From IMG/VR virus record IMGVR_UViG_3300023205_000110: DNA of 64,000 nt. One strand, 5' to 3'. The notes under the pieces were generated by a model that had not been told where the DNA came from, did no database searches, and saw nothing but the letters and a program-made list of their open reading frames with translations. The DNA comes from an uncultured virus (IMG/VR IMGVR_UViG_3300023205_000110) (lineage: Duplodnaviria > Heunggongvirae > Uroviricota > Caudoviricetes > Crassvirales). Positions 3,622 to 60,844 of the stretch are shown piece after piece (the stretch's first letter is position 1; every line of letters starts with the position of its first letter). A program made the translations under genes and the position numbers.

Positions 3622-3734
3622 ACTCCCCGTAGAGGATGGAATGGTAGTTGTGCTAGTAATATTAGTATAGTTATTAATAATAATGATTATATTGATTGAA
3701 TGAATACTAGTCTATTCCATCCTCTACGGGGAGT
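3622..3734. repeat. perfect 21-bp inverted repeat formed by two copies of the dispersed motif around a 71-bp AT-rich spacer
   Basis: 3622-3642 actccccgtagaggatggaat is the reverse complement of 3714-3734 attccatcctctacggggagt. Confidence 0.95.
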
Positions 3735-3794
3735 TGAGCGTAGCGAAGCGGAGCGTTCTACTAATCCTTAAACTTATAGTCGTTGGCATGACTG

Positions 3795-3840
3795 AAACCT
3801 CGGTAGCTAAGCTAGTCTTACTACTGAGGTTTATTTTTAT
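3795..3840 (+). terminator. intrinsic terminator
   Basis: Stem aaacctcggtag / ctactgaggttt followed by atttttat. Confidence 0.65.
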
Positions 3841-3870
3841 CTTATTATTAAACTTAAATATATTATAATT

Positions 3871-4053
3871 ATGGTTGCATTTATTGTTCTTCTTGGAATT
3901 ATATTTGGTGGTGTTAAATTATTAGCTGTTGCTAATAATATTAGTGATAGTGAAGCTATGGATAAGTATAGTGGAAAACTATTTGTTATTGGTATTATAG
4001 TTTTTGTTATTCTTATGTGTGTTATTGGTAATAATGATGATGGTTTTAATTAA
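3871..4053 (+). CDS. small two-TM membrane protein
   Basis: 60 aa with two hydrophobic segments; AT-rich leader typical of Bacteroidota genes. Confidence 0.6.
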   Translation: MVAFIVLLGIIFGGVKLLAVANNISDSEAMDKYSGKLFVIGIIVFVILMCVIGNNDDGFN

Positions 4054-4208
4054 GATATTGCTATTATTAATAATCATATAGGCTATGCGCCTACGCACAA
4101 AGGTTGCACCTTTGATTGGCTTATAGAATAGACTAGATATTCGTAGTCGTTAAAGTGCTGATAATCAGCATAAAAGCTATGTTAAATCAACACCCGTAGT
4201 ATGACTGA

Positions 4209-4243
4209 TACAAAGATTAGTAGAACTAGTACAAAGATTAGTA
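4209..4243 (+). repeat. 14-bp direct repeat, 21-bp period (iteron-like)
   Basis: tacaaagattagta at 4209-4222 and 4230-4243, just upstream of repL. Confidence 0.75.
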
Positions 4244-4264
4244 TAATTTTTTATTCTATTAACA

Positions 4265-4292
4265 TTTGATATAGTTATATTTTTTATCTTTG
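4265..4292 (+). promoter_or_regulatory. Bacteroidota sigma-A-type promoter for repL
   Basis: TTTG at 4265-4268 and TATCTTTG (TAnnTTTG) at 4285-4292, 20 nt before the ATG. Confidence 0.5.
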
Positions 4293-4312
4293 GAATATAA
4301 AATTATATTCTT

Positions 4313-4879: not shown

Positions 4880-4880
4880 A

Positions 4881-4932
4881 ATAAAAGGGCTTGTCTAGGT
4901 AGTGATACCATAGGCAAGCCCTTATTTTTTTT
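4881..4932. terminator. bidirectional intrinsic terminator between the convergent gene blocks
   Basis: Stem aagggcttgtcta / taggcaagccctt, with an A-tract before and a T-tract after. Confidence 0.85.
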
Positions 4933-4950
4933 ACTAGATTCAAGTCCAGT

Positions 4951-7900
4951 TTATTCAAATATATCTTTACCTATATCTTTATAAGGTATAATACTAAGTA
5001 TATTTTCATCAACTTTATAATAACTATTATTATTAGGTAAATCAAGAACTCGATTAATACTACGAACAACAGGTATATTACGAACAGCCATAACTTCAAA
5101 CTTGTTCATACCTTTATATCTACCAGTAGTATATTCCTCAGTAAAATCTTCTTCAATAAGGAATCTAGCAGCCATAGCAGTAGTACCAAGTAAGTCATTA
5201 ATAGTTTGTCCAATAGCAACAGGACTAGACCATAGTTTTTTACCTTCAGCATAAGCACCAAATGGAGTAAATGAAGCAGCTTCAGAAGCAAGACGGTCAG
5301 CGTGATAAAGCATAAGATTATATATAATACTTTCATCATCATCTCCTCCCATACCAGTTATAGCAATTGCTCCAATAACAGCAGCACCTACATAAAGTAA
5401 ATCACCTAAATTACGTCTAATATTTGCTTTTTCATGTTCAGGAAGAAGTTCATAATTAAGTTTGAAATTAACAGCAAATGAAAGTAAATTCTTACCATAA
5501 ACTTGGAATGCTTTAAGAACATCACTTACATTATTAATTTCTCCTATGTTAGTTTCTTTAAATGGAATAGTCAAATAATCATAAAGACTAGTATAACTAC
5601 CTTTTTCAATAGTACCTAGAGTTTCATTATAATAACCATTCCAACGATAACGTTTCTTAAAACCGGGATAAAGATGTTTATGATATTGCATAACCATACC
5701 ACCCCACCAATGTTGTTCAATATTAGCAGAACCAAGTTTATCATAAACACCATGAACTTTCTTATTTACTTCACGAACTTTATCAATAAATTTAGCATAT
5801 TCTTTAAGAGTAAGTTTACTATCAGATTTTATTTGAGCAATTCCATCTTTAAGTTCAAACTGATTATAAACATCTGGAAGTTTAGCAAACTTTTTATCGA
5901 TATTCTTAATAAGTTCTTTACGTTTAGCTATATATTCTCTTTGTTGTTCTTCATTAAGATAAGTCTTAACAAAATCGAATATAGGATTAGCTTTAAATAG
6001 ATTATATTTAGCTCGTTTTTTATTATCAGCTTTAGCATCATCCATGAACTTATTGAATTGTTCAAATAGAGCTTGGTTCTCCTCTCCACGGGGAGTATTT
6101 ATTACAGACATAAGAGCATCTTGTTCAGCTTTACGATGATACATTTCTTTACTCATTATATCATAACCACCTCTACCATTATCAACAAGTCTATGAGATT
6201 TAAGCATAGCAAATAGCATAACATTTTGCATATAATGTTCACCAACAGATTGAGGACTAAATAGTAATCCACGAACTCTACGAATATTTTCTTTAAGACC
6301 TTCAACAGTACTAACTTCAGTTACTCTATCAAAATCAACTATATGACTAAGTTTAATAATAGCATCTTGAAGTGTACTACTATTTTCACTATACATATTA
6401 GCCATATAACTAACAGTTCCTTTAATCCATTCAGATTTACCAGCTTCCCAATCTTTAAGATTAATATATTCACCAGCAGCTCGTTCCATAAATATATTAC
6501 TAGAACCAGTAAGAACGTTAGCAATACCACCAGTAATATTCATCATCATATATTTACTACCAGCAATGTTTTGAGCAAGAGAACCTAGTTTAACTAGATT
6601 AGGAGTTTTATTATCTTTATATTGTTCAAATACAAGACGACGAATAAAGCTTCTAAGATGTTCACTAGTTCTAGTTTGTTTTTCTTGTTTATATTCAATT
6701 TCACCACCAGCACTAGCTTCTCTATTTTCACTTATACTACCTTTATAATTTATATCATAAGCAGTATTGCTAGTAATAATTTGGTCAGCAGTATAAAGAA
6801 GATTTTTAACTGTTTTAACAGCATTATATCTATTACTTTCAATTAAAAAACTATTAAATACTTCTTCCCAATTACGATTAAGAATATCATTATGAATTTT
6901 ATTATTCTTTTCAATAATCTCATCTTTAGCTTTAATAGCAGCAGCTTTACGTTTACTAAATTCTTCATCACTTTCATTAGGTTCTTTAAATTTAGGTATA
7001 GTAGGCAACTGTTGAGTATCTTTATTAACTAATTGAATTAATCTAGGATTAGGAATATCATAATCTTTATCAAAAGTTAAATCTTCATTATTTCTCCAAT
7101 TAGTATTATTAGGAACATTGGCTGTCCAACCAAGAAAACTAAGAGCTTGCTCAAAGTAATCTTTAACAGTCATATCTTTAGACTTAGGTAAAGCTGGAAG
7201 ATAACCCATATCAACATATCGCTTATTACTATTAGTAAAACAATACTTTTTCATAAGTTCATTTACTTTATTCATAAGTTCAAGTTGATACTCATTAAGA
7301 CTAGTATAATTAGGATTATCATATCCTGTTCCTACTTTGTACTTATTAACAAAACTACTATATTCTGGATTAACAAGTTCTTCTTTAGGAGTAATATGCA
7401 TTTGATTAATACGTGGTTCATAATTACCAACAACAGCTGAACCATCATCTTTAATCATTTGCATAGTAGTCCAAATACGAATAGGTTTAATAGTACGAGT
7501 ATATGGGTCAAAATAATGATTATCTCTATACCATTGTTTATATTCAACACTATCAATACCATATTTGTCAAGAACTTCTCTTTCTTTTATATAGTAATAT
7601 TGAGTAGTAGTTTCTCTAGTTCTCTTTTGAAGAATATTAATTGCAGCAGTTCTATCAATATCAGTCCATTTATCTAAATCTTTAGGTTTAATAATACCAT
7701 AAATAGTTCGATTAGGTCTTTCTGCAATAGTTCCATTTTCTTCAACTTGTTCACTAAATACTTCTAGCCATTTATCATAATATTTTTTACCTTTAGCAAA
7801 AGCTCTATTTTTATCAAGTTCGTATTGTTTCCAATTATAAGTAACATCACATTCATTTTCAATAAATTCAGCAACACGTTTTGCTTTAGCTTTATCAGTA

Positions 7901-10900
7901 CTCTTTTCACCTCTAGTAATTTCATTAAATACTTCAAAACCAGTCTTGAGTTGTTCTAAATCTTCTTGACTAATATCAGCAGTATTAAGAGTTCTAGTAG
8001 CATTATCAAAATATTTTTCAAGTATTTTATTAATAGCTTCTCCTACATTAATTTCTTCTTCGCTCTTAGATTTATTACCTGTAAGATAATTATAGAAATC
8101 AGCACGATAAATTCTAAGTTCATCTTCAGCAGAACGAATAATACCAACATAAGGCATACCATTGCCTTTAGTATATTTATATTTTCTAACTGTTTCAGCT
8201 TTAATAAGAGCTGCACGTTCTTCAGGTATTTTACGTCCATCAACTACATTAAATTCATCTTTAGCTTGAAATTCTTTAATAGCAAGATTAAGAACACTAT
8301 TACCTTTATTAGCATCTTTAAGTTCTTCAAACGCCCAATTTAAATCTTCTATATCTTTAATATCAAGAATATATCTAGTATTCTTACGAATCCATTCTTT
8401 AGCTTCATAATATTCAGGAACTTTCATAAGTTCTTCCATACTAATAAGAAGATTACCATTAGCATCACGTTGACTTTCATATTTACTAATAATAGAAAGT
8501 TGTTCTTTAAGTTTAGAATCAAATCCTTCTTTAGCTTGCTTATCATAGAACATTTCTTTAACTTTACGAATATTAGTTTGATAAGCACGAAGTCTTTCAG
8601 CTACATTTAAATCATGACCAATCTTTTTATTACCATCTTCATCATAAAGACTAGTAAGACTATCCATTTGAGCATATATACGTCCAAGTTCTTCATCTTG
8701 ACTTTGCGTAGTAACATTATCAGTCGCTTGACTTAAAATATCTCGTATTCTACCATTAAGTCTTTTATATTCAGCAAATTCTTTAGGAATACCATCATCT
8801 CCTTTTTTAAGACCAAGAAGACTTCTTTCAAGATTTATAATATAAGTAGAATATTCAATAGTAACATCATTACCATCTTCATCTTGAACTGTAATTGGTT
8901 TAAGCTGATGAATAGTAGTCATATCAATAAATTTAGCTTTATTAGATAAAGCAATAAGATGTTCAACACTATTTATACCAAATTTTTGTTCAGCTTCAAT
9001 AGCAGCATCTCTATATTTCTTCATCTTTTCTTCCCAAACAGGATTATTAGGTTGAATTAATCTACCATCATTATCAATTATACTATCAAGACTAACAAAT
9101 TTACCATCTTTAGCAGCTCTAGATTTAAGTTCTTTAAGATAATTTCTAAAGTCATTAGATTCTTTAATACCATTAAGACGACCTTCTTCAACAGTACCCA
9201 TTACATCTTTAAGTATATTCTGCAATACAAAGTTACGATTAGCACGAATATCTTGTATCCAATAGTCCATAAATCCAGTATCTCCATAAGCATCAAATTC
9301 TTTCATAAGACCACTTATATAATTAGGATTAGTAGTACGTAATTGAATCCATCTTTCAAACCAATCTTTTCTAGCAGAATGTACAGTAGTATTAGAATCA
9401 ACTTGATTAACTAATTTTTGAATCTTTCTAATATTCTCTTTAGTTTTATCATCAAGATTTGTACTATCAATATCAATTTCGCTAATAAGTTTGTATTTAT
9501 TCTTAAATGTATTAGCATTAAGAATAACATCTAAGAAACGATTTTGAAGTTGTTCATCTTTAAGAACTTTACCAATAACATCTTTATCGTTAATAGGTTT
9601 ATCAATACCGTCAATTTTAATAAAACGATTAATATCGTTAAGAATATTATTAGCTTCAACATCTATATAATTAGCTATAACTGATAATGAAAATTCAGAA
9701 TTATCAGAAAGACTACTACTATCAAGATAGTTAATTTCAGCATTATTTAAAGCATTAAGAACATTCTGGGCAGCAGGTTGACCATGACGAACAGCACGAG
9801 AAATAACTAAACTAGCATTTTTAGCAAATCTACCAATAGGAGTTTGGTCATCAATACTACTATATCTATCAGTATTACTAGTAACTCTATCTATTTCATT
9901 TTCATTAATTTTAATAAATAAACCAAGTTTATTATCTTCAATATTAGGATATTTAGCTTTATATTGTTTTAAATCATCGCTTAAATTAATAGCAGTAGTT
10001 CCATTAATGTTAAGATAAAATTTATCATTAATAGTATATATAGTATTATTCTCAAAAGGAGTATTCATAAAAGGCTGGAAATACTCATCAGATATATATT
10101 TACTATATAGTTCAGGAACTTCTTTATAACCTTTATTTACAGCTTCATTAATATTATCTTTAATACCATCAATAAATTTATCTCTTTTTTCTTGTTGAGT
10201 AAGACCTTTATAAAGAAGAACAGCTAATGGTTTATGAATATTATTATTAGTTATAATACTAGGTTCAATACTATTATAAGTTTCAAATGATTCAAGTCTA
10301 TCAATAGGATAATAAGCTAAAGTTCCATCATAAGTTCCTTTAATATATAAATTTCTATTAATTCTAATAACATTAACAGCATCTCCATTTCTTATTATTC
10401 CTACATTATCAAGATTTTCTTGACCATTAAAAGTAATAATACCACTTCTTTTTAGACTATAATTAATTTTATTATTAGTAAGTCTTTTAAATGTATAACT
10501 AGGACAATTAAAACTATTATAATTCTTACGAATAAAACCAATTATATCTTCAACATTATCTTTATCAACAAAACCATAACTATTAATACCTTTCATAGCT
10601 ATATCTCCAATAGCTATTCCGCCTTCACTCAATCCTCTAAGTGGAGTATTACTTATAAGTCTACTAATATTTCTAGTTCTAAATTTATGACCTTCAACAA
10701 TAAAAGCATATTTAACTAAATCAAGAGCTGTAAGTTTAATAAGAGGATTAGGATGATTCCAAGCTCTATCAAACAATCTATGGGCTTCATCATTAGTAAT
10801 ATCACCTTGTATGTAATTAATATATTGAATATTTACATTACGGCGATTACTTCTTTCGTCATTAGCAACTATTTCAATATGTTCAAATACACTACCATCT

Positions 10901-13900
10901 TGACTAAAATTACGTTTAATCCAATCAACTTTCTGAGCAGGAGTAAGTCTAGCAAATACATCAATTTCAGTTTGTGTAGGCTCAAATATATTTTTAACTA
11001 CAACATCATCTGTTTTAATATTAACTAATGTACCACTAACTCTACCAACTTCTAAAGCTCTAGATTGTCCAGTGCCATATTCTTTAATATATTTAGGATG
11101 AACAAAATCCCCATTAACAATAGTAACAGGTAAATTAAGATAAGAACTACCGTTATTACCTACTTCTAGTTTATTAATAAGATAATCTTTATAATCATTA
11201 TATAACTTTTCAGTCATTATTCCACCTTTAGTCCATTCTGCTATTCTATATACATAATCAATAAATACAGGATTAGCAGTTTCAAATACTTGTTGAGTAG
11301 CTTTAACACTAAGAGCAGTACTCATTTGTAAAAATGCAGCTAAACTAGGATAACTACTTTTAGATATATCAGATTTAATAAATGCATTTATACCACCACT
11401 AATATCAGGAAATACACTCTCTAACAGCAAGGTTTGACCCCCCGTAGAGTATGGAGCATAAATATTACTATTTTCAATAACAGTTCTAGCATCTCTAAAT
11501 ACTTTATCACTAGCATAAAAACTTTGTTTAGCACCATATTTATCAGCACTAAGAATATTAAGATTATTACTTATATCCTGTCCGATTGAGTTTAGCCGAT
11601 TGAATTGTGCTAGAACATAAAGGTCAAATAAAGCCTGCTGAATGCCATTCATTTCCCCTCTAAGACGAGATTTATATGCGTCTGATGAAAATATAAGGTC
11701 TGGTGATGAAAATGCGTCAGAAACGCTTAAATTGAATAATTTCTTGAAAGTTTCGCCATAACTTTTATCAATAGTTTCAATTAGCTTTTTACGTCCAGCA
11801 AAATTAACTTTTTCACCAAAACCAAGATTATGAGCAACTTCTCTAATAGCTTCAGTAAGCGGATTTTTAGTACCTTCTGCAAGAACACTATTAGTTTCTT
11901 TCCATTTACGAACTAGTATATCAATAGCAGGTTGCCACATAAATCCAATAGCAGTATCATAATTACTTCCAAAGTCAACAATAGTTTTGAAAGCATTAAA
12001 TGTATAAGTATTTTCATTATGTATAGCCCCCTCTTTCATAACATCGAGAATATGAGCAGTAGTCTGAGAACTATAAGGATTAATCAAATAGCCATCAACA
12101 TTCTTATCATCTCCAGACCAACCAAAATTTTTATGAGTAATACGAATATGTTTATTACCAATAGTTTCAACATTTTCTTTACCATATCTATTAACAGCTT
12201 CTTGCTCACTAATCACATCAGTAGTGTACATAACTTTAATACCTTCGCTATGATTAGCTTTAATAACATTACCAATACTCATAAAAGTATCTCTATTAAC
12301 ACTGATACCTTTAAGTTTAATACCAGAAGTAGCAGCATCAAACCAATCAAGTTGAGTAAAGAAATCACTAGGAGCAACAGTTGTTTTATTAGCACCAACT
12401 ATTTCTGCATAAGTTTCATTAGCTTCTTTGACATTTTCAAAGTTAGAAGTAGTAGTATTTTCTTCAAATGCAGCAGGATTATTAAGTATATCAATAAATG
12501 ATTGAATAATAGCATTAGTTCTAGCAGCTTGACTACTTGTATCCTCCACGGGGAGTTTCAAGTATGATTCGTAAGACTTAAGTCCACCATCATTAGCAAT
12601 TTTTTCAACAACTTTAAGATTGCCATTATAACCTTCAAGAGTAGCATTAATAGCATCTTCGCTATTTTTTAAAGAAGCTCTAATATTACCTTGTTTATTA
12701 TAAGTCTTACCAAGAATTTTACGACTAGCTTTATCTACATTATCTTTAACATAATTAATATATCCTACTTCATCTTTAGTATATCTGGCATGAGTAATTT
12801 CAGTTGGAATACCTTTAACAAGATTAAATGTTTTAGACATACCATAAACACTATCAACGTCAAAGTCAGAACCAGTTTGAGTAACCCATTCATCAGGAAC
12901 AACAACAGTACTACCATAAGCATCTGGAAGAAACTCTTTAACATACATAATACATATAGATTGTTTACCTTCAGTAGGAATACGATAACCAATCATAGTA
13001 CGTAAGCTATCAGGAACTTGTTCAATATTTAATCCTTTAAGTTTACTACTCCATCTAGGAAGTTTAATTTCAGTATAATAAACAGGAGTGCCATCAACTT
13101 CTCCAATCTTTTTATATTGAAGTTTACTATCCGTTTGAGTTTGTTTATCAACTTTAAATCCAAAATCAGATAGCTGAGCAGCGTGCCAACCACTAATAAG
13201 TTGTCTAGTAATATTAGTATTAAAATAACTATTAGCAATACTTTCAAGTTTACTATTAATATTAGATAAAAATAAAGGAAGATTATTAAATCCAGCACTA
13301 TCTAAATCGAAAAACTCAAGAAGAGCTTTTTCAACTCCTTGTTGTTGAGCATTTTCTTTAAATCTATCAAAGAATACAAAACGATTAAGATTTTTAATAG
13401 TACCATTAGAATTTAAATCAATATGACCATTATCATCTAATCCAATACCAAGTTCAGCACAAGTTTTTTCAAAACTATTTCTAATATTAGCTACATAGTT
13501 ATTAAATACTTTACTCTTAAGGTCATTAAGTTCAGTTCGATTAGGAAGATTATCAAGCATTTTCTTCATAATCTGAATAGCAGCTTTATTACTAGCATCA
13601 ACCATATGTTGAGGAACTTCTTGCTGACGATAAAGATAATTATAACTAAATAGTTCAGAATTATCAAATACATTATTATCAAATTCTTTAAGAGCTTCAT
13701 CAGTTAAAACACCATCGTTATTCCAAAGTGTCATTCTATTATGTTGTGCAACTTTAACAGTTTCAACAGTATTAATTTGATGAACACCTCTATTAGTCAT
13801 TATATTATAAACTTTTTCAAGTTCTGTTCCTTTAATAAGTTTAGGAATAAGAACAAACTCAGCGTTCTTTACTTGTCTAGGAACTTCAATACCAACAGTA

Positions 13901-16900
13901 GTATCATAATATAAATCATAATAGAAATTCTTTTGAATTTGAACTTTATTAGCAAATTTAGTCCAATCAATTTTATCTATTGGAGTATCATCTGTAAGAC
14001 TTTGAATAAGTCTAGCATATTTATCTAATTCACCAGCAGCAGTAATACGACGAATCCATTCTTCAAGAGTAATATAAGATTGAGCATCATTAGTATTAAC
14101 TTCTCCTTTAAACGGTTCTAGTATTCTTTCTCTGTCTTTTTTATCAAGTCCAGCTTTTTTAAGTTGGTCATCAAGTCTATCAATAACAACTTTATCAGAA
14201 GCTTTAAAAGTATTATAAATGGTAACACCCCTAAATTTATCTTGAAGAACTACTTTTTTACGTTTAGTAACTCCATTAACAGTATAAGGAACAGTAACAG
14301 CATTACCTTTAATAGTTATATCATATAAATCAGTAGCTATATCTAAATCATTTTTAGTAAAATCAGTATTACCAAAAGGATTACCACTAGCTTGTACTTC
14401 TTTAATACGTTTTAGAATAGCTTGACCATTCTTATAAAAACTTTGGTCACCACCATACATATCGTACATACTATCTCTAACAAGATAATCATTAACTAGA
14501 AATTCAGCTAAAGATTCATTATTAATCCTATCATCAATAAATGTACCATATTTATTTTTAAGTTCTTTATAACCATTAGTTATATATTCATTTAACCAAT
14601 TAGCAACAGCATCTTCAAGAGCAACACGTTGTTCTGCATTAAGAACTACTTGATTATTAACATAGCTAAGTCCACGTGTAGACCCCCCGTAGAGGATGTC
14701 AATAGTCTTACCATACCCAATTAGTTCATTAAATGCTCCATTACTATTAGGAGTAATTTTACTAACTAAACGTTTAAAACTAAATACTCTACCAGCTAAA
14801 ACTTTGTGCCCATCTTTAGTAATAAATACATTACCTTTTCCATCTTTATGATATTGATTATAAAAATGTTCAGGTTTATTATTATAAATATTACTAAATT
14901 CAAAATCTCCATTAGTTAAAATAGGATTACCATTAGCATTAGTCTTAAACATTACATTAACAGCTTGAGCCATATTAGTAAGTTCTTGAATAGCTATATT
15001 ATAATACTGTTTAAATAATGGATGTTCTCTATTTATAATTTTAGTTCCATCTTCTAATTGACTTCGTAATCCATTAAGACTATATCTAGGAGCAGTAATA
15101 GTAAAGTTTTTAGGAGCATCACTAGGTATAGGAAGTAAATAATTAGCAGTAGGAGTTTCAGAATTATTAATATCAGTCATAAATAATCCCATAGCAGTAA
15201 TTAAATAATCACCGTCACTCATACTACGATATAAGTCATTATTATTATTATCTAATTCACTAATACCATTAAGAAGAGAAGTTTTAAACATACTACGAGC
15301 ATATTCAGTAAGTTTAGGAGTTCCATTTCCAACTCTTCTAAACAATCCATAATTAATTATATTACCATTACTATCTCTATGTTCAAGAAGTAAATTACTA
15401 TAATCATATTGATGACTAGCAAACTTTTGTTTAGCATAAGCTTCAACCATAGCGTTTTGCTCTTCAACAGTAGATTTATCATCATTGATTATTTTAGCAA
15501 TATTAGTAATAAAACTTCTATTAATAACATCAGAACTTAAATTACCTTCGGGATTACGAGAATTAAGTTCAACAGGAATATAAATAATATCTTTAAAAAC
15601 ATCAGCCATTTGATATATAATAGAAGTATCACCTCTATTAATAAAACTATCAGGCATTTTAGTTTCTTTATCCTTTTTAAGCGCTTCTACATATTTATTA
15701 TAATTTTCAACTGTACGATTAATAACATTGGCAAAATTAATAAGATTATTAGCCATAGCTACACGACCAATCTTAGCAATAGCTAAATTAAAACTAGCTT
15801 GATTAATATCTGGAAATATTTCTTTAAAAGCATCATATAAATAAAGATTAGCATGAGGAGTATTTTTATATCTATCATATATACGAAACTTTTCACGAGC
15901 AGTAGGAACACGATTAGTAATAATATTATTCTTAACATTATTATAAAAAGTATTCTGTAAAATAGTACGAGAATCAGTATTAGGATTAGTTACACGAGCA
16001 CGAACATAACTATTACCATTAGAATCAGTTTGAATATAAGTTTCAATTTTAGATATAATAGGTTTATTAAACACCATCATATACTTATTAGCAAATACTT
16101 TATTTTTGCTAAGTAAATCATGTAATTGAATCAAACATTCACAATTTGGAACAGTTTCAGATATACGTTTAAGACTAGCTATAAAATTATCTACATTACT
16201 AGTATCAGCACTAGCATATAATATTTTAGATAAATAATTAGCATCAGAAAAAGTAACAACTCCTAATTCATTATTAGTATCAAAAGGATAACTTCCATTA
16301 TCAAGTTGAGAAGCAGCAGTAAGTTTAGGTAAACTTGCAAGATGATATTTAATAATTTCTTCTACGTGTTTATTAAAATCTTTAACTTCACCAATACTTA
16401 AATTCCAAAGTTGAGTCATCAAATCAATACCATCATCTATACTATTTTCATCACCTTCAGTAGAAGTTTCATCAAGATAACCGCCTAATTCTTCATAATC
16501 AGTAGTTTGATATAACTCATCTCGTTTAATAAGTTTAGCTACATTTTTATTATTAAAAAGAGCTTCATTAAATTCAGTATTAGTTAAAGAACGAAGTAAT
16601 GCACCATAATTAAAATCTTGAGCATCACCATATTTACGAAGAAATGCACCAAGACCATTAATTTTAGTAGCAGGATTTGGATTATTAATAAAACTATTAA
16701 GTTCATTATTTTTAGCTTCATCACTTCCAGCTAATTTCTTAGCGCGTTTAAGTCCAGCATTAATAACAGTTTCATTAGTACGTTTTTTAATTTCATTAAA
16801 ATTTAATGGAGCACCATTATATAGAAAATTAAAACTAAGTTTATTCATAATATCAGCCATATAAGTAATAGCTGTATCTCTAGCTTTAATTGTACTAAAC

Positions 16901-17163: not shown

Positions 17164-17200
17164 AAGTTTATATTTAAGTTTAAATTCATTAATAGTAATA

Positions 17201-17247: not shown

Positions 17248-17293
17248 CTGTTTTCTTTCGTTTTAAGCGACTTTTATATTTGCTCGATTAATT

Positions 17294-36954: not shown

Positions 36955-37008
36955 TGTATCTAAATGTCAATCATTCTAAGAAATATAACCTTAAACATTA
37001 TTATAATA

Positions 37009-39487: not shown

Positions 39488-39695
39488 AACTTTATTATTT
39501 TAAAATTTAATATTGTAAATATTTATGTACGTCCATAGAGTCACTTTTTAGGCTCATAGCAAGACTTTCATTAAATCATGTACAGTTAATCAGCTAGGTT
39601 TAAAACTAGCCAAATTCGGCAAGCTATACTCCCCGTAGAGGATGGAGCAGGCTTGAATCAGTCAATCAAATCTAGCTAATCAATCTTATACAATC

Positions 39696-47300: not shown

Positions 47301-48235
47301 ATATTAGCTGTAACTGTTCTAGTGCCGCCTTTAGCTTCAACACTAGTTCCATCAGTTTGTAAATCTAGTACCCAATCAGTATAAACTTTAGCGCCAGCAG
47401 CTTGATTTAAAGCAGCACTAACTTCTTTAGTTTGTTTATTTTCTAAAGTAAATATAACAGTTAAAGTTCCACTTTTAGCATTAGTAGATTCATTATTAGG
47501 TATAGTTAATACATTATTACTTATACTACCTAAAGTAGTAGAACTAGTAAAGCTAGCAGTAAGATTAACAACAGTTTCAATCCAAGTTCCAGCATAAGTA
47601 GAACCCTTGGTTATACTCCCCGTGGAAGGTGCATAATCAGTTCTCTTATATCCACTTTTAACAGAACTAGTAGAAAGTTTTAAATCATAACTTCCACCAG
47701 TATTAGCTATACTACTATCAACTACTGTTAATGTACTAGTATCATATATACTAGCTTTACTACCTTTAAACGTAACAGTATAACTATCTTTAGCTTCTGT
47801 ATCATCAATTAATACAACTAACTTACCATTAGTTATAACTCCTTTTTCTATTCCATCAAATAAAACTTTAACTCCATCAGTAGGAAAAGTAACAGTATAA
47901 GAAATAAATCTTTGTTCCCATTCTAATTCTACATTATGAGTTATAGGTAAATAACCACTGTTACCACTAATAGTTTGAGATTTATAATGTTCAGCAGTAA
48001 TATTAGCAGTATAATCAGTCTTAACAGGAATAGTAAATACAAATTTAGTATTATTTTCACTTATAACAGGAGTATAACCATTAATAGTAACAGTTCCGGA
48101 AACATTTAATTTAAACGTAATAGTAATTTCAGTATTCTCTGGATAAACAAGTTTAGAACCTTGATATATTTCAAATACATTTATACTACCAAGTTTAATA
48201 TCATGTATTCCAATATCTCCTTGATATATAGCCAT
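44351..48235 (-). CDS. tandem BACON (Ig-like) repeat fibre protein
   Basis: About eight ~100-aa Ser/Thr-rich repeats W.V.IS...A.GG...SASR.R.WTWNG...N.....RS....T.....ITQ.AG. Confidence 0.85.
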   Translation of the reverse strand: MAIYQGDIGIHDIKLGSINVFEIYQGSKLVYPENTEITITFKLNVSGTVTINGYTPVISENNTKFVFTIPVKTDYTANITAEHYKSQTISGNSGYLPITHNVELEWEQRFISYTVTFPTDGVKVLFDGIEKGVITNGKLVVLIDDTEAKDSYTVTFKGSKASIYDTSTLTVVDSSIANTGGSYDLKLSTSSVKSGYKRTDYAPSTGSITKGSTYAGTWIETVVNLTASFTSSTTLGSISNNVLTIPNNESTNAKSGTLTVIFTLENKQTKEVSAALNQAAGAKVYTDWVLDLQTDGTSVEAKGGTRTVTANIARRTYKWNNTGTIYSETATPTLSISGSASLSGNQIKFTSNESVSARSATLTASYVGLSKTVTITQQAGSKVYSAWSAWTVSISASTQTIAASGGSSTITTNASRSRTWTWNGVGTTHTDTETATPTLSGSAGGFTLSGKTVTASNNTTTNSRSITITATSNSVSKSITINQSAGAKVYGNWSAWTVNISADKTSIGATGGTATISTSASRTRSYTWNGVAGSGGTETGNGSPALSKVSGTGNWASPKVTYGNNTSTSGKSTVIRATIDSTTKDITISQSAGAKQYSAWSAWTVNISNSGNVAPSGGSSNITTSASRTRTWTWNGVNGSGGTETGTGTPTLSKISGVGSFASNKVTYDNNTSTSARNTVIRATMDSVTKDTTVTQNAGSKTYSSWGAWSISLSANVTTIAAAGGNATLSTSATRSRTWQWNGTGATYTENASGSPTLNKVNGAASLSASTVSYGNNTSTSSRSSVFRATIDSVSKSITITQSAGAKVYGNWSSWSVSCSASSYKVLAGGDSVTIYSSASRNRTWTWNGVAGSGGTESDNATPTISVTSGVGVLSGNTLTFSNNTSPDARTTRVTANYNGVTDYCDVMQYGGNKVTGSWTSWQVTISASSMNIVASGGSSTILCHASRTRNYTWNGVGTTYTETENGSPTLSKSGDGTLSGTTSGSKLTYGNRTATTSRSTTVTATYSGVSKSINITQSAGVKTNITSSTKVLFLYEGASNYVEAINNSVYINNARDNNENYNGAVSYDIRFKVIITESYKWNNTGNTISSESYGSINRHKDISFNTSTFLYKDTDNSYYGSFSIISKNTADEEEYSAQYITNNNIIITLYVRRPRLYWQIWCNEILEQKDQPFTVNVNNVTRTKLYNNNTITEGCAGSGEQYLYLFSTSNMMTSRSITVKLIRNNNPNDACKLTGFTDINTHTKTSVGLEEDKTVIRTFVTSYIQTLPINLCKVTFEYAELKFRVFIAKGTGN

Positions 48236-53794: not shown

Positions 53795-53857
53795 ACGTTC
53801 TCTAGGTTTACTAAATTCATAGTGTAGACCCCCCGTAGAGGATGGAACACATTCACA

Positions 53858-56858: not shown

Positions 56859-58016
56859 TCAAATGTTTTTAAGTTTATTTTTATAAGCACTAACAAGAGC
56901 ACTATTGGTAGGATTCTTAAACCATGTAACAGCTTCCTTAACATTAGCACCAATGAACTCACCATCAGGAGTAGTAATATTCTGATTATGAATTGCTCTG
57001 ATAAATTCTCCACGAGAAATAAGAACCTCAATTAAAGATTTAATAGTAATATCTTTATCATTGCAAAGTTTATTAAACTTAGCAGGTTCATTTGTACTAA
57101 ATTTATCAAGATGAGTTTGTTTATCAACAGTATCCATAGCCATACCGTTAGGAATATTAATATTATTGGCAACACAGTATTGAATAAATACAGCATCAAA
57201 CAAATCACTATTCGTGAGAAGTTTAACATAATTGCCTTTAGCCGAATTAATTTCCTGACGATGTTTAGCAAGACGCTCAGCTTCTCTTTGGTCATCTTTA
57301 AAATAAAATCTAATAGATGGGTCAGAATTAATAAGAGCAATATCTTTAGCTACATCTTTATATAATAAACAATGACGATAAATTAGATAATCATCAAGAA
57401 CAATAGGATAACCATATTTATACTTTTCACTTTCAAGAAGATTTAACTTAGTAATTTTAGCTTCAAGAGCTTCTCTAAGTTCTTTAACTCCTTTACGGTC
57501 ACTATTCATATAAGCAGTTTCAATAGCTTCTTCTTCAGCTCTAAAACGAAGATAATCTCGTTTACGATTCCAAAAGAAAGAAATATCAAAAGTTTTACCT
57601 AGTTCATCAACTGAAACACTAATATTATTAAGATAAGCCTTAACCCGTGAAATAAAGTTTTCATTATTAGGAGCAAGACCAATTAAAGCAGGAAAATAAG
57701 ATTCAATCTCACCTTTATTAGAAGAAAGAGTACGAGAACTACGAACACAACTACCAATCTTATCCATTCGTTTAGGTAATGTTTTATCATTAACTCTACG
57801 ATATAATGAATAATTAGTAACTAAATTAATAGTAATAGTTCGTTTTTCAGTATAAGGTTCATCAAGACTTTCATCTCTAAATCCTACTGTATTAGCAGGC
57901 TGTTTATCTACTCCATCCTCTACGGGGGGTATAACCTGTTTATCTGTATTTATATTAGAAGCAGCAGGAGTATTTTCTCCTGCTTTATTAGCTTCATTTA
58001 CTTTGTTAAAATCCAT
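56859..58016 (-). CDS. conserved crAss protein downstream of the major capsid gene
   Basis: 385 aa; GYPIVLDDYLIYR; synteny. Confidence 0.6.
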   Translation of the reverse strand: MDFNKVNEANKAGENTPAASNINTDKQVIPPVEDGVDKQPANTVGFRDESLDEPYTEKRTITINLVTNYSLYRRVNDKTLPKRMDKIGSCVRSSRTLSSNKGEIESYFPALIGLAPNNENFISRVKAYLNNISVSVDELGKTFDISFFWNRKRDYLRFRAEEEAIETAYMNSDRKGVKELREALEAKITKLNLLESEKYKYGYPIVLDDYLIYRHCLLYKDVAKDIALINSDPSIRFYFKDDQREAERLAKHRQEINSAKGNYVKLLTNSDLFDAVFIQYCVANNINIPNGMAMDTVDKQTHLDKFSTNEPAKFNKLCNDKDITIKSLIEVLISRGEFIRAIHNQNITTPDGEFIGANVKEAVTWFKNPTNSALVSAYKNKLKNI

Positions 58017-58041
58017 ATCTTAAATAGCTTCTTTTAAATGA

Positions 58042-59514
58042 TTATAATACACATTTCAATAAGAACATCTTAGTAGTGTTATCTACCTGCAAACCAATAG
58101 AGCCTTTAACTTCATAACGAGCCATATCAATTTCAGTAGCTGCATGATTAGTATTAGGCAATCCCCAGCAAGAAGGAATATCAGTCATACCTTCAATAAC
58201 TTTAGCTTTATAAGCCTGTCCTTTTTGACGTACTATACGAACATTCTGATTACCTTTATAATTACTCATATCAATCAAAGCAGCTTGATGAGAAGTAATA
58301 GGCAAACCAGTAGTAGGATGAATCATACCATTTTGTTTAGCAGCTTCAGCATCAGTACCCTTATCGAAATAAGCATTATGAATAACAGTAATGATATATC
58401 CATCTGGAGTTTTATACTTATTAAAGTAACGTCCATAAGAAAGACCATCACCATTATCTTGAATCATCTTTTCACCAAGAGGAGTAATAAATCCGTTTTC
58501 TTTAGCATCAGTTCTGATAGCCATTTCAAAGTCACGAATAAATCCTTTACCGCCCATAAGAGCTACATTCTTATCGCCATCTTGAGTATCACGGTCAAGA
58601 ACATCACCAATTGTACGTTCAAGTTTGTTAAGAGTCAGAAGTTCACCATAAGTATCATAGTTAGATTCACGACAAATTTCTAACATACCAGCAGTATGAG
58701 GAATAGGTTTACCATTATCATGGTCTTTCAAAGGAATAGTACCATCAGGTAAACGGTTATATTCAGACTTCCACAAACGTTCTTCGTTCATTACTCTCAT
58801 GTGCAAGTTGAACTGTCGCATCTCTTCGTTAATCCAAAGATTAGAAGTACCACCATTATCATTTTGGAATTGATATTGAGTAACAACATTAGCAAGATTA
58901 CCAGCTATTTCTTTAGAATAACGATAAAACTCAAGTTGAGAAGTCATTCCAGCAGGGCCCATAGTATTGCTTCTGTTACCTTTAGAATAAGATTCAGAAA
59001 CAGTAGGAGCACTCATTGCCCAATACATACCTTTAGCCAACCATTGAGGGTCAACATAAGCATCAGGATTAGGAGAAGTAAGTTTCAAAAGATAAGCATA
59101 ACCATAAGCAGATTCACCTAAGTCTTTCTGAATACGAACTTGAGTAACACCATCGGGAGCAGTAAGACCATGTTGTTCAATAAACCAATGAGTAGAGAAA
59201 TGAACTTCAAATTCACTACCATTTTGACCAGGTTTAGTAACAGCAGTATTAAAGTAAGTTACAAAGTCTGTAAACTTCATACGACCCATAGTTTTCCAAG
59301 TCCATTGTACAGTAGCAACATTTTTAATACCACGACTACCTTGACCTTCAGTAATAAAACTTAAAGGAAAACGGTCATCATCCATACCATAATTATAAGT
59401 CAGAAAACTATTAATTTCTTCTGGCTTTTGAAGCTGAAGATAAGCAATGGATTCTTCATTAGAATAACCTCTATCTTCATAACGAGTTTGTCCAATAACA
59501 CGTAATGTTTTCAT
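58042..59514 (-). CDS. major capsid protein
   Basis: 490 aa, high-expression codon bias, terminase-portal-scaffold-MCP order, crAss MCP-like motifs (FPLSFITEG, TAGMLE). Confidence 0.85.
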   Translation of the reverse strand: MKTLRVIGQTRYEDRGYSNEESIAYLQLQKPEEINSFLTYNYGMDDDRFPLSFITEGQGSRGIKNVATVQWTWKTMGRMKFTDFVTYFNTAVTKPGQNGSEFEVHFSTHWFIEQHGLTAPDGVTQVRIQKDLGESAYGYAYLLKLTSPNPDAYVDPQWLAKGMYWAMSAPTVSESYSKGNRSNTMGPAGMTSQLEFYRYSKEIAGNLANVVTQYQFQNDNGGTSNLWINEEMRQFNLHMRVMNEERLWKSEYNRLPDGTIPLKDHDNGKPIPHTAGMLEICRESNYDTYGELLTLNKLERTIGDVLDRDTQDGDKNVALMGGKGFIRDFEMAIRTDAKENGFITPLGEKMIQDNGDGLSYGRYFNKYKTPDGYIITVIHNAYFDKGTDAEAAKQNGMIHPTTGLPITSHQAALIDMSNYKGNQNVRIVRQKGQAYKAKVIEGMTDIPSCWGLPNTNHAATEIDMARYEVKGSIGLQVDNTTKMFLLKCVL

Positions 59515-59533
59515 CTACAAATTTACTATTATG

Positions 59534-60844
59534 TTAATAACCAAAACGCTCATCTTTCAGAGCATCTTTTTTACTGTCAGGTTTAGTTATTTTAATAGCT
59601 CCTTTTGTAGATTTACGTTGACTAGCAGTAAGTTTCAACTTTTTAGCTTCTTTATCAGAAACAGCCATTTCTATCAAACTATCATAACCTTTACCTGTAT
59701 ATTTAAGCCAAGCTTTAAGCAGTTCTTCATCGCGTCTTTCAGCAGGAGATAACTTCATTAAATCATTTTCATAACGAGAAAGTCCTTTATCATCAACTTG
59801 ATAAACATAATTGAAGAAATCTTCTGGAGTAGTAGAAATTTGTTTTCCATTACGTTCAATAATAACAGTTTCAGGAATACGATAACCAGCAATTTGTCGT
59901 TTATCAATACATTCTTTAACTCCATTCCAAAATTCCACAAGTTGTTTCTCTTCTTCTGCTTTAACTCGCATAGCTTCTTTAGCATTAGCTTCACGCATTT
60001 CGTTATCAGCTTTCTGAAGAGCTTCAAGTTCTTCTTTAGCAACATTGAAAAGTTCATTGCTATCTTTAAGATATTGAATATACTTATCAACATTACCACG
60101 ACGATTAAATTCCTTAAACGCCTCACGAACAATAGCTTCTTGTTGACTTACATTATTTTCATCTACTTCAATACCGCTTCTATCTCGAAGTTCACCAAAG
60201 CCTTCAAATGAATTACCATTTGCAACATAATAATTAAGAAAATCACCAACGATAGGATAATCTTCAAATAATTTATTAACACCAGCTTGAGCAAATTCAT
60301 CACGTTTTAAATCAATAACGGATTGAATATAACTTGCAACTCCTTGAGGAGTATTTTCAAAAGTAACAGCTTTACCATCTTCTGAAGTAACAGAAACACC
60401 TACAAGTTCTTGAATTGATTTAACATCAATAGTATTTTCTTCTTTAGTATCTTCTACTTCAAATTCTTTAAGATAAGCAGCAACTTCATTTTTAGCTTTA
60501 AAGATATTACCTTTATCGTCAATAAGATTACCGTCTTTATCGACAATATATTTATTATCTCCATCTTCGATAATAGTACCTTCTTCTAAACCATGTTCAG
60601 CATCAGCGTCATTCGCTTTGTCATTAGGCTTACCCCCCGTGGAGGATGAAGATTGGTTATCTTTATTAGCATTAGAATCACTATTCCCATCTCCATTACC
60701 ATTATTAGTAATATCATCAATAGGATTACCATCAGCATCTAACTGCCCTGTTTTACCTGTATCGAGGTCTGTAATGTCGTCAGTAGGTTTTCCATCACCA
60801 TTAGATGTTTCACCATTAAAACCAAAACTATCAAAATTAGGCAT
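59534..60844 (-). CDS. acidic scaffold-like head assembly protein
   Basis: Asp-rich disordered N-terminus, helical C-terminus, between portal and MCP. Confidence 0.55.
   Translation of the reverse strand: MPNFDSFGFNGETSNGDGKPTDDITDLDTGKTGQLDADGNPIDDITNNGNGDGNSDSNANKDNQSSSSTGGKPNDKANDADAEHGLEEGTIIEDGDNKYIVDKDGNLIDDKGNIFKAKNEVAAYLKEFEVEDTKEENTIDVKSIQELVGVSVTSEDGKAVTFENTPQGVASYIQSVIDLKRDEFAQAGVNKLFEDYPIVGDFLNYYVANGNSFEGFGELRDRSGIEVDENNVSQQEAIVREAFKEFNRRGNVDKYIQYLKDSNELFNVAKEELEALQKADNEMREANAKEAMRVKAEEEKQLVEFWNGVKECIDKRQIAGYRIPETVIIERNGKQISTTPEDFFNYVYQVDDKGLSRYENDLMKLSPAERRDEELLKAWLKYTGKGYDSLIEMAVSDKEAKKLKLTASQRKSTKGAIKITKPDSKKDALKDERFGY

What the first reader, a model, noticed from the sequence alone, without database searches (positions are those of the whole stretch)
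3622..60649. Genome-wide GC-rich DNA motif in 19 copies, on both strands and in five reading frames
Seen: consensus (T/G)AC(T/C)CCCCGT(A/G)GAGGATGG recurs at plus 3622, 11435, 14681, 20542, 26991, 34312, 39627, 43387, 47613, 53826, 60631 and minus 3714, 6084, 12541, 18266, 26561, 34103, 43654, 57911, roughly one per 3.4 kb, in a very AT-rich genome. Fifteen copies are inside essential virion genes, where they translate differently: TPRG/TPRR (6084, 26561, 34103), (L/P)PVED (12541, 18266, 43654, 57911), STG(G/S) (11435, 20542, 26991, 34312, 47613, 60631), ILYGG (14681) and HPLQG (43387). The constraint is therefore on the DNA, not the protein. Inference: a dispersed cis-acting system. Candidates are binding sites for a phage protein (parS-like partition or compaction, which would suit long-term persistence), programmed nick sites as in T5-type genomes, priming/restart sites, or ejection/packaging signals. 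I know of no description of it, but could not search.
Basis: partly seen in the sequence, partly recalled or inferred. Interest (0 to 1): 0.9.

Follow-up and report, generated by a model that had tools for sequence, protein, structure and literature searches.

The report
Strand-tiled DNA word in crAssphage
The prototypical human-gut crAssphage keeps one ~19-letter GC-rich DNA word every 5-6 kb along each strand, even inside essential genes, and its relatives keep their own spellings at the same places, so it is a conserved DNA signal whose reader is still unknown.

Summary
The window is a strain of Carjivirus communis (p-crAssphage). All 19 listed copies exist, within 1-5 nt of the stated coordinates, plus one decayed copy at 10630-10648. 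Dinucleotide shuffles give 0 copies and codon-preserving shuffles give 0.04, against 12 coding copies seen.

The constraint is on DNA, not protein. The word is read in five frames. The same 12-nt core, CCCCGTRGAGGA, sits at the same alignment columns of orthologous genes in Delmidovirus and Diorhovirus: core identity 0.90-0.93 against 0.31-0.38 in flanks, and once in different frames. Each genus has its own flanks ("dialects"). Three more Intestiviridae genera carry variants.

Copies are spaced far more evenly on each strand than chance allows (window + strand CV 0.26, P<5e-5). The word is absent from sampled Bacteroidota genomes, does not fold, matches no Rfam family, and does not track RepL.

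Against it: among six strains the word varies as freely as its flanks at third-codon sites.

My best guess (about 0.3) is a strand-specific start signal for DNA synthesis, by priming or nicking. Rivals are a Chi-like self-mark and a protein roadblock or architecture site.

I found no description in print. Earlier agents of this scan noted the same kind of word in other crAss-like genomes.

The parts
3621..3639 (+). Word copy, 0 mismatches, intergenic. Left arm of a convergent pair; carries a GC-rich 5' extension with a short hairpin.
3717..3735 (-). Word copy, 1 mismatch, intergenic. Right arm of the convergent pair.
3585..3770 (.). Large imperfect inverted repeat made of the two extended copies around an AT-rich ~75-nt loop. 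It lies upstream of the RepL-position gene (4313-4879).
   Evidence: -43.9 kcal/mol as ssDNA, z = -11.2, 0 of 200 shuffles fold as well
6079..6097 (-). Decayed copy (4 mismatches), sense in the giant RNAP-subunit ORF 4951-17163; peptide NTPRGEE. In the reference this site is a 5-residue insertion relative to the other genera.
10630..10648 (-). Decayed copy (3 mismatches), sense in ORF 4951-17163.
11436..11454 (+). Copy (1 mismatch), antisense in ORF 4951-17163; peptide PYSTGGQ.
12539..12557 (-). Copy (3 mismatches, all in the 3' tail), sense in ORF 4951-17163; peptide KLPVEDT. Same alignment column in Delmidovirus cr110_1 and cr11_1.
14681..14699 (+). Copy (1 mismatch), antisense in ORF 4951-17163; peptide DILYGGS. 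Same alignment column in Diorhovirus cr3_1.
18267..18285 (-). Copy (0 mismatches), sense in ORF 17294-23164 (RNAP-associated/zincin protein); peptide RPPVEDG. A counterpart in cr3_1 lies within 2 alignment columns.
20542..20560 (+). Copy (0 mismatches) with a GC-rich pentamer-repeat 5' extension, antisense in ORF 17294-23164; peptide PSSTGSI. Orthologous site in all four genomes compared.
26558..26576 (-). Copy (2 mismatches), sense in ORF 25730-28303; peptide KTPRRGR.
26992..27010 (+). Copy (1 mismatch), antisense in ORF 25730-28303; peptide QSSTGGL.
34101..34119 (-). Copy (2 mismatches), sense in ORF 33729-34745 (tail tubular protein); peptide QTPRGGY.
34313..34331 (+). Copy (1 mismatch) with a GC-rich hairpin extension, antisense in ORF 33729-34745; peptide PSSTGGQ. 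Orthologous site in all four genomes compared.
39627..39645 (+). Copy (0 mismatches), intergenic.
43388..43406 (+). Copy (2 mismatches), antisense in ORF 42575-44260 (tail protein); peptide VHPLQGV. Present in the reference and the window; the homologous stretch in strains LMMB and ZA is a different sequence.
43653..43671 (-). Copy (1 mismatch), sense in ORF 42575-44260; peptide LLPVEDD.
47614..47632 (+). Copy (3 mismatches), antisense in ORF 44351-48235 (BACON-domain protein); peptide APSTGSI.
53827..53845 (+). Copy (0 mismatches), intergenic.
57913..57931 (-). Copy (0 mismatches), sense in ORF 56859-58016; peptide IPPVEDG.
60631..60649 (+). Copy (1 mismatch), antisense in ORF 59534-60844; peptide SSSTGGK. 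Specific to Carjivirus among the genomes compared.

Best explanation
SHOWN. The word is a real, phage-private DNA signal. Its Carjivirus spelling is KACYCCCCGTRGAGGATGG, with the core CCCCGTRGAGGA. It is kept at about 32 places per 97-kb genome (about 14-20 per strand in the four genomes compared). It is written through coding sequence in whichever frame is open. It is kept at orthologous places across genera, with genus-specific flanks. It is spaced much more evenly along each strand than chance allows.

INFERRED. A phage-encoded factor reads the word in an orientation- or strand-specific way, and has co-evolved with it; that would explain the dialects. What is selected is coverage of each strand, with no long gaps, rather than any single site. 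This would explain why sites move while their number and order stay the same.

GUESS (the mechanism I commit to). Each word is a start signal for DNA synthesis on its strand. It is either a site where a sequence-specific primase or RNA polymerase lays a primer on exposed single-stranded DNA, or a site nicked to give a 3' end. Either way, both strands of this very AT-rich genome can be copied from many evenly spaced starts. Close opposite-strand pairs would then act as two-way starts. The GC-rich word would also give a stable primer-template hybrid.
For: REALITY. 16 matches against 0 in 100 shuffles. 12 coding copies against a mean of 0.04 in 200 codon-preserving shuffles.

DNA LEVEL. Five reading frames are used. 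At 7 sites orthologous in Carjivirus, two Delmidovirus genomes and Diorhovirus, the 12-nt core is 0.90-0.93 identical while flanks are 0.31-0.38. At the primase site the same word is read as ILYGGS, PLRGV or FLYGG in different genera.

POSITIONS. 14 of 20 reference coding sites in alignable ORFs have a counterpart within 7 alignment columns in another genus, and 7 are shared by all four genomes (my count). My rough chance expectation is below 1.

TURNOVER. In the giant RNAP gene, Carjivirus and Delmidovirus have the same count and the same antisense/sense order but partly different columns.

DIALECTS. Flanks differ by genus. Variants occur in crAss002, cr271_1 and ctbg_1.

EVEN SPACING PER STRAND. 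Window + strand: n=11, CV 0.26, P<5e-5. Reference: + CV 0.31, - CV 0.50. cr110_1: 0.59 and 0.32. cr11_1: 0.49 and 0.39. cr3_1: 0.41 and 0.33. Random placement gives about 0.92.

CLOSE OPPOSITE-STRAND PAIRS. 5 of 14 reference minus-strand sites have a plus-strand site within 300 nt, against a null of 1.6, P=0.0095.

PHAGE-PRIVATE. In the 1.7-Mb genome G001, all 28 core matches lie on the crAss contig and none elsewhere. The 300 Bacteroidota genomes other than G003 have 0-3 per strand, like the control. The 19-mer scan of 185,579 species genomes hit essentially only crAss contigs plus scattered singles.

HAIRPIN EXTENSIONS. Intergenic copies often carry a short GC hairpin 10-14 nt 5' of the word, as single-strand initiation signals do (recalled).

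LITERATURE CONTEXT. The crAss-like virion RNA polymerase transcribes single-stranded but not double-stranded DNA (passages of preprint 10.1101/2020.03.07.982082). The two SSB genes are the most often expressed C. communis genes in metatranscriptomes (passage of PMC10983915).

DENSITY. One signal per 5-7 kb per strand is the density of one complementary-strand origin per small ssDNA phage or rolling-circle plasmid. This is recalled, not tested.
Against: No experiment or read-level datum links the word to DNA synthesis. Only assembled contigs were available.

Single copies have no hairpin: z = 0.4 to 1.3, and -1.47 for one. Known single-strand initiation signals are structured.

Known DnaG-type primases read three bases, not 12-19 (recalled).

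There is no saw-tooth of GC or AT skew between successive same-strand sites, which long single-stranded exposure might leave.

Among six strains, third-codon sites in the word vary like the flanks: 16/161 against 445/4147, P=0.90. Only the 5' half, ACYCCCCGT, is less variable (10/288 against 1420/18538, P=0.005), and that is a post-hoc split.

Early transcripts of phage phi14:2 made by the virion RNAP had no common upstream motif. The first 50 kb of phi14:2 shows no strong word.

No reader protein is identified. The primase and several neighbouring proteins gave no Pfam domain.
Confidence: 0.3

Rival explanations
1. A Chi-like self-mark. A helicase-nuclease, encoded by phage or host, enters at DNA ends, degrades until it meets the word in the right orientation, and then switches to repair. 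Phage DNA is spared while unmarked DNA is destroyed.
For: The word is orientation-specific, present in both orientations everywhere, and one per about 5-6 kb per orientation. It is phage-private, which suits a self/non-self mark. The phage encodes a PD-(D/E)XK nuclease, an SF1 helicase, RecT and a Gam-like protein (annotation; helicase domains).
Against: The word is 12-19 nt, far longer than known Chi sites (recalled). Four-gamete breakpoints among five genomes are not enriched near sites (P = 0.26-0.41), though Chi acts at a distance and power is low. Even spacing is not a known property of Chi (recalled).
Confidence: 0.15
2. Binding sites for a phage DNA-binding protein that acts as a roadblock, silencer or genome organiser. 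This would be stoperator-like repression during carriage as a phage-plasmid, or anchoring and compaction.
For: The word is an asymmetric site of 19-25 nt with genus-specific flanks, as expected for co-evolution with a protein. C. communis is reported to persist as a phage-plasmid (abstract and passages of PMC10983915). About 30 sites per genome resembles the stoperator number (recalled).
Against: Orientation does not follow transcription: 8 sense and 8 antisense coding copies in the window. 16 of 20 copies are inside genes, not between them. RepL-like proteins do not track the word. Even spacing per strand has no obvious meaning for a double-strand binder.
Confidence: 0.15
3. An RNA-level role. 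Antisense and sense copies within one long transcript pair to form 12-19-bp duplexes that are processed, in an RNase III-like way, or that stabilise mRNA.
For: Opposite orientations alternate more than chance in two of the four genomes: 22 of 32 switches in the reference, P=0.04; cr3_1 24 of 32, P=0.01. There is an excess of close inverted pairs. The pair at 3585-3770 folds strongly. GC hairpins with 3-4-nt loops lie beside intergenic copies.
Against: Alternation follows from even spacing on each strand and is not significant in cr110_1 or cr11_1 (P = 0.14 and 0.12). Most neighbours are kilobases apart. No Rfam family matches. Sites are equally frequent in both orientations in modules transcribed one way. 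The available RNA runs were contigs only and showed no ends.
Confidence: 0.05
4. A selfish mini-insertion, like GC clusters of yeast mitochondria or Rickettsia palindromic elements, that spreads into an AT-rich genome and decays.
For: One reference site (window 6079-6097) is a 5-residue insertion relative to the other genera. Strain-level variation in the word equals that of the flanks. The word is GC-rich in an AT-rich genome.
Against: The site set is fixed within the species: every site of five strains has a reference counterpart. Sites are orthologous across genera, with 0.90-0.93 core identity beside flanks at 0.31-0.38, which decay cannot give. There are no terminal repeats or target duplications and no palindrome. 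Other lineage-specific sites arose without an indel. Even spacing is not expected of insertions.
Confidence: 0.03

Closest known systems
Single-strand initiation signals (ssiA/ssiB of IncQ plasmid RSF1010; complementary-strand origins of G4/M13-type phages; sso of rolling-circle plasmids)
   Same: Strand- and orientation-specific. Private to the replicon and its own priming enzyme. About one per 5-9 kb of strand. Opposite-strand pairs make a two-way origin. Intergenic crAss copies carry a short GC hairpin beside the word.
   Different: Known ssi/sso are structured elements of 40 nt or more, in non-coding DNA, one or two per replicon. Here there are about 32 short unstructured words, mostly inside genes. 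No priming has been shown.
Nick-associated consensus motifs of phages with localised single-strand interruptions (T5/BF23; phiKMV-like; tf/LUZ24-like)
   Same: A dispersed, asymmetric phage-private consensus of about 10-20 nt at fixed genome positions.
   Different: Those phages have 3-14 sites, in T5 on one strand only (recalled), with no reported even tiling or overprinting of genes across a family. Nicks are not shown here.
Chi sites (RecBCD/AddAB)
   Same: An oriented word, about one per 5 kb, that marks 'self' DNA for a tracking enzyme.
   Different: Chi is 5-8 nt, is the host's word enriched genome-wide in the host, is skewed with replication, and is not evenly spaced. This word is absent from sampled Bacteroidota genomes.
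DNA uptake sequences (USS of Pasteurellaceae, DUS of Neisseriaceae)
   Same: Written into coding DNA in several frames. Lineage 'dialects'. Inverted pairs between genes. Partly conserved positions.
   Different: Those are bacterial, about one per kb, not evenly spaced, and read by the competence machinery. A phage has no uptake step of that kind.
Stoperators of Cluster A mycobacteriophages
   Same: About 30 asymmetric sites per phage genome, read by one phage protein.
   Different: Stoperators are intergenic and oriented with transcription. Here 16 of 20 copies are intragenic and orientation is 8 sense to 8 antisense.

Membership tests
Chi sites | The word is over-represented in the host genome whose RecBCD/AddAB reads it | tested here: not met
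   The 12-nt core occurs 0-3 times per strand in the 300 sampled Bacteroidota genomes other than G003, like the reversed control; one genome has 8 against 5. There are 0 outside the crAss contig in G001. The true host genus could not be named, because handles are coded.
Chi sites | Stimulates recombination near or downstream of the site | tested here: inconclusive
   Four-gamete incompatibilities among 5 genomes are not enriched within 0-300 nt of sites (P = 0.26-0.41). Power is low, and Chi acts over kilobases.
Chi sites | Short (5-8 nt) recognition sequence | tested here: not met
   The conserved core is 12 nt, and 19-25 nt within a genus.
Single-strand initiation signals (ssi/sso) | Strand-specific signal present on each strand to be copied | tested here: met
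   The word is asymmetric. Each strand carries its own evenly spaced set.
Single-strand initiation signals (ssi/sso) | Stable stem-loop in the single strand | tested here: not met
   5 single copies folded as ssDNA give z = 0.44 to 1.32, and -1.47 for one. Only some intergenic copies have an adjacent GC hairpin.
Single-strand initiation signals (ssi/sso) | Primer synthesis starts at the signal | not testable with these tools
   No raw reads were available; all 24 runs are kept as contigs.
Nick-associated phage motifs (T5, phiKMV-like, tf-like) | A physical single-strand break at the motif in virion DNA | not testable with these tools
   Contigs cannot show ends.
Stoperators | Sites oriented with the direction of transcription and mostly intergenic | tested here: not met
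   8 sense and 8 antisense coding copies; 16 of 20 copies are inside ORFs.
parS / partition sites | Palindromic site, few copies clustered near the origin | tested here: not met
   The word is asymmetric and unstructured, with about 32 copies spread over the whole genome.
Selfish GC-rich mini-elements (mitochondrial GC clusters, RPE, REP/MITE) | Insertion polymorphism, terminal or palindromic structure, and decay after insertion | tested here: not met
   The site set is fixed among strains. Sites are orthologous across genera with a conserved core. There is no palindrome.
Known RNA families (Rfam 15) | Match at gathering score | tested here: not met
   0 matches in the window.
RepL iterons / RepL-read sites | The word co-occurs with a RepL protein | tested here: not met
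   Pfam RepL is in 1 of 5 word-bearing records. blastp finds diverged RepL-like ORFs in Delmidovirus but none in cr3_1, and the window's gene at that position has no match to the reference RepLs.

The most novel reading that the evidence does not exclude
crAss-like phages copy their genomes from about 14-20 sequence-defined start sites on each strand. A phage enzyme (a sequence-specific primase, the ssDNA-dependent RNA polymerase, or a nickase) reads the word and begins DNA synthesis there. That would be a multi-start, strand-tiled replication mode not described for any dsDNA phage, with the word and its reader co-evolving as genus-specific dialects.
Probability: 0.25. Interest if true: 0.9.

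Novelty: new variant of a known kind. Interest (0 to 1): 0.8.

Why it matters
crAssphage is the most abundant known virus of the human gut, and how it replicates and persists is still open. A DNA word that is kept for a family's whole history, overrides coding sequence in essential genes and is tiled evenly along each strand points to a central, unrecognised step in the handling of its DNA.

The question is directly testable now that C. communis, crAss001 and crAss002 are in culture. The tests are end-mapping, pull-down with the word, and synonymous removal of words. The dialects also give a simple sequence marker for genus-level typing of crAss-like contigs.

Tried and rejected
SEQUENCING RUNS. 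All 24 runs found were contigs, none raw reads. Laying 4 RNA-run contig sets on 3001-23000 gave no molecule starts or ends. Contigs often stop at word copies (for example 14665|14735, 20542, 3729). The 'joints' have only 20-23 letters on one side, so they are cross-matches of the word, not real junctions.

SKEW. No GC/AT-skew saw-tooth between same-strand sites.

RECOMBINATION. The four-gamete breakpoint test showed no enrichment. HSP ends between strains fall near some sites, but the words lie in indel-prone loops, so I drew nothing from that.

RepL AS READER. Rejected.

CANDIDATE READER PROTEINS. Pfam on the primase, neighbouring small proteins and the PD-(D/E)XK nuclease gave no informative domain.

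HAIRPIN. Rejected for single copies. The Y and R positions do not co-vary (by eye, on the list).

KNOWN RNA FAMILIES. Rfam gave nothing.

STEIGVIRIDAE. In the first 50 kb of crAss001 the top 9-mer may be peptide-driven (9 hits against 2 in the control). In the first 50 kb of phi14:2 there is no strong word. I make no claim for that family.

WHOLE GENOME. None is held for the window; I used BK010471 and G001:C7 instead.

LITERATURE. Searches found no description of the word.

Full report
WHAT THE WINDOW IS. The first 25 kb match Carjivirus communis (p-crAssphage, BK010471.1) at 97.8% identity over 97% of the query. The whole window aligns to reference positions about 23.4-89.1 kb, with a few replaced segments. 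It covers the end of the replication module on the + strand, and the virion-RNAP and structural genes on the - strand. GC content is 27-33%.

THE OBSERVATION. The 19-mer KACYCCCCGTRGAGGATGG has 16 matches at up to 2 mismatches, and none in 100 dinucleotide-preserving shuffles. Allowing 4 mismatches gives 20 copies. Sixteen lie in long ORFs and four between genes. Coding copies use five frames: sense LPVED-type x4, sense TPRG-type x4, antisense SSTGG-type x6, ILYGG x1 and HPLQG x1. The sixth frame contains TAG when R is A. Shuffling synonymous codons within each ORF gives a mean of 0.04 coding copies (maximum 1 in 200) against 12 observed at up to 2 mismatches.

THE WHOLE GENOME. The reference has 34 hits to the 13-nt core at up to 2 mismatches, of which 32 carry the flanks. 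They lie on both strands across all modules. Strains LMMB, ZA, O-152 and the contig G001:C7 have 30-32. Every site in the five strains, counting the window as one, has a reference counterpart, so the set is fixed within the species. One site (window 43388) is replaced by unrelated sequence in LMMB and ZA.

VARIATION AMONG STRAINS. Against three strains, substitutions in the 13-nt core were 33/1092 (3.0%), compared with 415/12132 and 388/11998 in the flanks. With five strains, segregating third-codon sites were 16/161 in the 21-nt word and 445/4147 in the flanks (P=0.90). Non-coding sites were 16/189 against 464/6094. So at this depth the word is not visibly more conserved than its surroundings. 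Position by position, K and R vary freely (7/32 each) and the 3' tail varies at 14%. The 5' half, ACYCCCCGT, is quieter (10/288 against 1420/18538, P=0.005). I chose that split after seeing the data, so it is exploratory.

CROSS-GENUS EVIDENCE. This decides that the DNA is constrained. A relaxed core (CCCCGTRRRGGA, up to 1 mismatch) finds 32 copies in the reference, 35 in each of Delmidovirus cr110_1 and cr11_1, and 32 in Diorhovirus cr3_1. I aligned orthologous ORFs with MAFFT. The word falls in the same column in all four genomes in PolB, the SNF2 ATPase, the ligase, the primase (within 3 columns), gp78, gp50 and gp45 (within 7 columns). It falls in the same column in subsets of genomes at seven more sites. 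By my count, 14 of 20 reference coding sites in alignable ORFs have a counterpart in another genus. My rough chance expectation is below one.

The neighbouring protein sequence is poorly conserved and often gapped. At the primase site the word is read in different frames in different genera. Anchored on the core, the 7 four-way sites are 0.90-0.93 identical in the 12 nt but 0.31-0.38 in the 39 nt beyond either side.

Sites also turn over. In the giant RNAP gene, Carjivirus and Delmidovirus each have five sites in the same antisense, sense, antisense, sense, sense order but partly at different columns. One Carjivirus site is a 5-residue insertion. Others arose without indels.

DIALECTS AND SPREAD. 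Flanks are genus-specific.
- Carjivirus: tAgAC(C/T) before the core and TGGAg after it.
- Delmidovirus: GAGACC before the core and T/A after it.
- Diorhovirus: TTG(T/C)TC before the core and A after it.

In the first 50 kb of three further Intestiviridae genomes, the most enriched words are variants of the same core:
- crAss002: 12 hits.
- cr271_1: 7 hits.
- ctbg_1: 8 hits, against 0 in the reversed control.

A 30-nt blastn query of the Carjivirus spelling against 50,697 phage records hit only 26 records, all Carjivirus, Delmidovirus, cr3_1 or unnamed gut 'Bacteriophage sp.' fragments. For Steigviridae I make no claim.

ARRANGEMENT. Prompted by earlier notes of this scan, I tested spacing per strand.
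- Window + strand: 11 copies, gaps of 3.2-7.8 kb, CV 0.26, none of 20,000 random placements as even.
- Window - strand: 9 copies, CV 0.56, P=0.09.
- Whole genomes: reference + 0.31 (P<5e-5) and - 0.50 (P=0.006); cr110_1 0.59 and 0.32; cr11_1 0.49 and 0.39; cr3_1 0.41 and 0.33. Random placement gives about 0.92.

Orientation alternates somewhat more than chance in the reference and cr3_1 but not in Delmidovirus, as expected if it simply follows from two evenly spaced sets.

There is also an excess of close opposite-strand pairs: 5 of 14 reference minus sites have a plus site within 300 nt, null 1.6, P=0.0095. In the window the pair 3621/3717 with its GC-rich extensions forms a 186-nt inverted repeat (-43.9 kcal/mol, z=-11.2), just upstream of the RepL-position gene. 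In the reference both RepL genes are preceded by such a pair.

Several intergenic copies, and two antisense coding ones, carry a GC-rich 5' extension. It is made of NCGCT-like pentamers and/or a 4-7-bp hairpin with a 3-4-nt loop, 10-14 nt before the C-run. cr3_1 has this too.

WHAT IT IS NOT.
- Not a hairpin. Five single copies fold no better than shuffles.
- Not a known RNA family.
- Not a host repeat. In the 1.7-Mb genome G001, all 28 core matches are on the crAss contig. The 19-mer scan of 185,579 species genomes gave 93 stretches, most on about 90-98-kb crAss contigs binned into MAGs or on small contigs of one isolate assembly, plus scattered singles. The 300 sampled Bacteroidota genomes other than G003 have 0-3 core matches per strand, like the control.
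- Not read by RepL.
- Not a detectable recombination hotspot.
- No skew gradient between sites.

HOW IT MOST LIKELY WORKS. Shown: a phage-private, orientation-specific DNA word under long-term selection, with selection on per-strand coverage. Inferred: a co-evolving phage reader that acts along one strand or in one direction. Even spacing is the signature of start sites for a process that must cover a whole template, where the largest gap is what costs; I recall that replication origins in yeasts are argued to be spaced this way.

The process that must cover each strand regardless of gene direction is DNA synthesis. I therefore rank first a start signal for DNA synthesis on each strand, by priming on exposed single strands or by nicking. 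Three things fit:
- The density matches one complementary-strand origin per 5-9 kb small replicon (recalled).
- Opposite-strand pairs beside initiator-like genes and hairpin-plus-word 'full' copies resemble known initiation signals.
- A GC-rich word would give a stable primer hybrid in 29%-GC DNA.

Two items from the literature fit the same picture. The crAss-like virion RNAP transcribes only single-stranded DNA, and the SSBs are the most often expressed genes.

None of this is direct, and I put it at about 0.3. The rivals, with their evidence, are in the Rival explanations section: a Chi-like self-mark (0.15), a protein roadblock or architecture site (0.15), RNA duplexes (0.05) and selfish insertion (0.03).

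COMPARISON WITH KNOWN SYSTEMS. The word works like an oriented genomic word (Chi, uptake sequences, stoperators, nick motifs, ssi signals), but it fails a defining feature of each family that I could test (see Membership tests). I file it under none.

NOVELTY. Full-text searches were by topic and by the literal motif in five spellings (six unrelated papers). I also read passages of the C. communis culture preprint (PMC10983915), the virion-RNAP preprint and the crAss001 persistence paper (PMC8375218). None describes the word. Subscription-only papers and bioRxiv supplements were not visible; Supplementary file 1 of the RNAP preprint lists promoter motifs that I could not see.

Earlier agents of this scan reported the same kind of evenly spaced word in other crAss-like genomes. 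Those are unchecked AI notes. Here I tested even spacing, absence of a hairpin and absence from host-phylum genomes myself.

LIMITS. Three Intestiviridae genomes were examined over 50 kb only. Orthology counts rest on one MAFFT run per ORF. The host genus could not be singled out among coded genomes. No read-level data were available.

Noticed in passing
window 1029-1050 (reference BK010471 24455-25490): The ~1.0-kb intron with its HNH endonuclease that splits the dUTPase gene in the reference has no counterpart here. The window has an uninterrupted 224-aa ORF at 736-1410.
   Followed up: partly
window 4063-4870: The RepL-position gene (ORF 4313-4879) is replaced relative to the reference. There is no megablast alignment and no blastp hit to either reference RepL. 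It has weak sub-threshold TrmB/Rep3_N winged-helix hits. This looks like an initiator-gene swap between strains that share the same word dialect.
   Followed up: partly
window 36326-36999 and 40468 (reference 60736-61071 and 64541-65567): Two further strain differences. The first is a variable segment between the IHF-like genes and the tail-fibre genes; strain LMMB carries a reverse-transcriptase gene there. The second is about 1 kb of the reference (around gp58-gp60) that is absent from the window.
   Followed up: no
window 3590-3620, 3736-3765, 20515-20541, 34280-34312: GC-rich 5' extensions of some word copies, built of NCGCT-like pentamer repeats and short hairpins with TAC/TTC/TTCG-type loops. 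Two of them are written antisense through coding sequence. Similar extensions occur in Diorhovirus cr3_1.
   Followed up: partly
window 3001-23000 in public RNA-run contigs: Assembled contigs of four runs often end at word copies (14665|14735, 20542, 3729, 11412|11474). This could be a repeat-graph effect or a local coverage drop; contigs cannot tell which.
   Followed up: no
loci L198-L277 (genome contigs): Near-complete crAssphage contigs of about 90-98 kb sit inside public MAGs labelled as Clostridia, Mycoplasma or 'bacterium'. Small crAss contigs sit in one isolate assembly of another phylum. This is binning or contamination, not host evidence.
   Followed up: partly
L298 (crAss001, first 50 kb): The most enriched 9-mer, CTCCAGAAG (14 copies), extends to an 11-mer with 9 hits against 2 in the control, mostly on the coding strand. 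It may be a peptide repeat rather than a relative of the word.
   Followed up: partly
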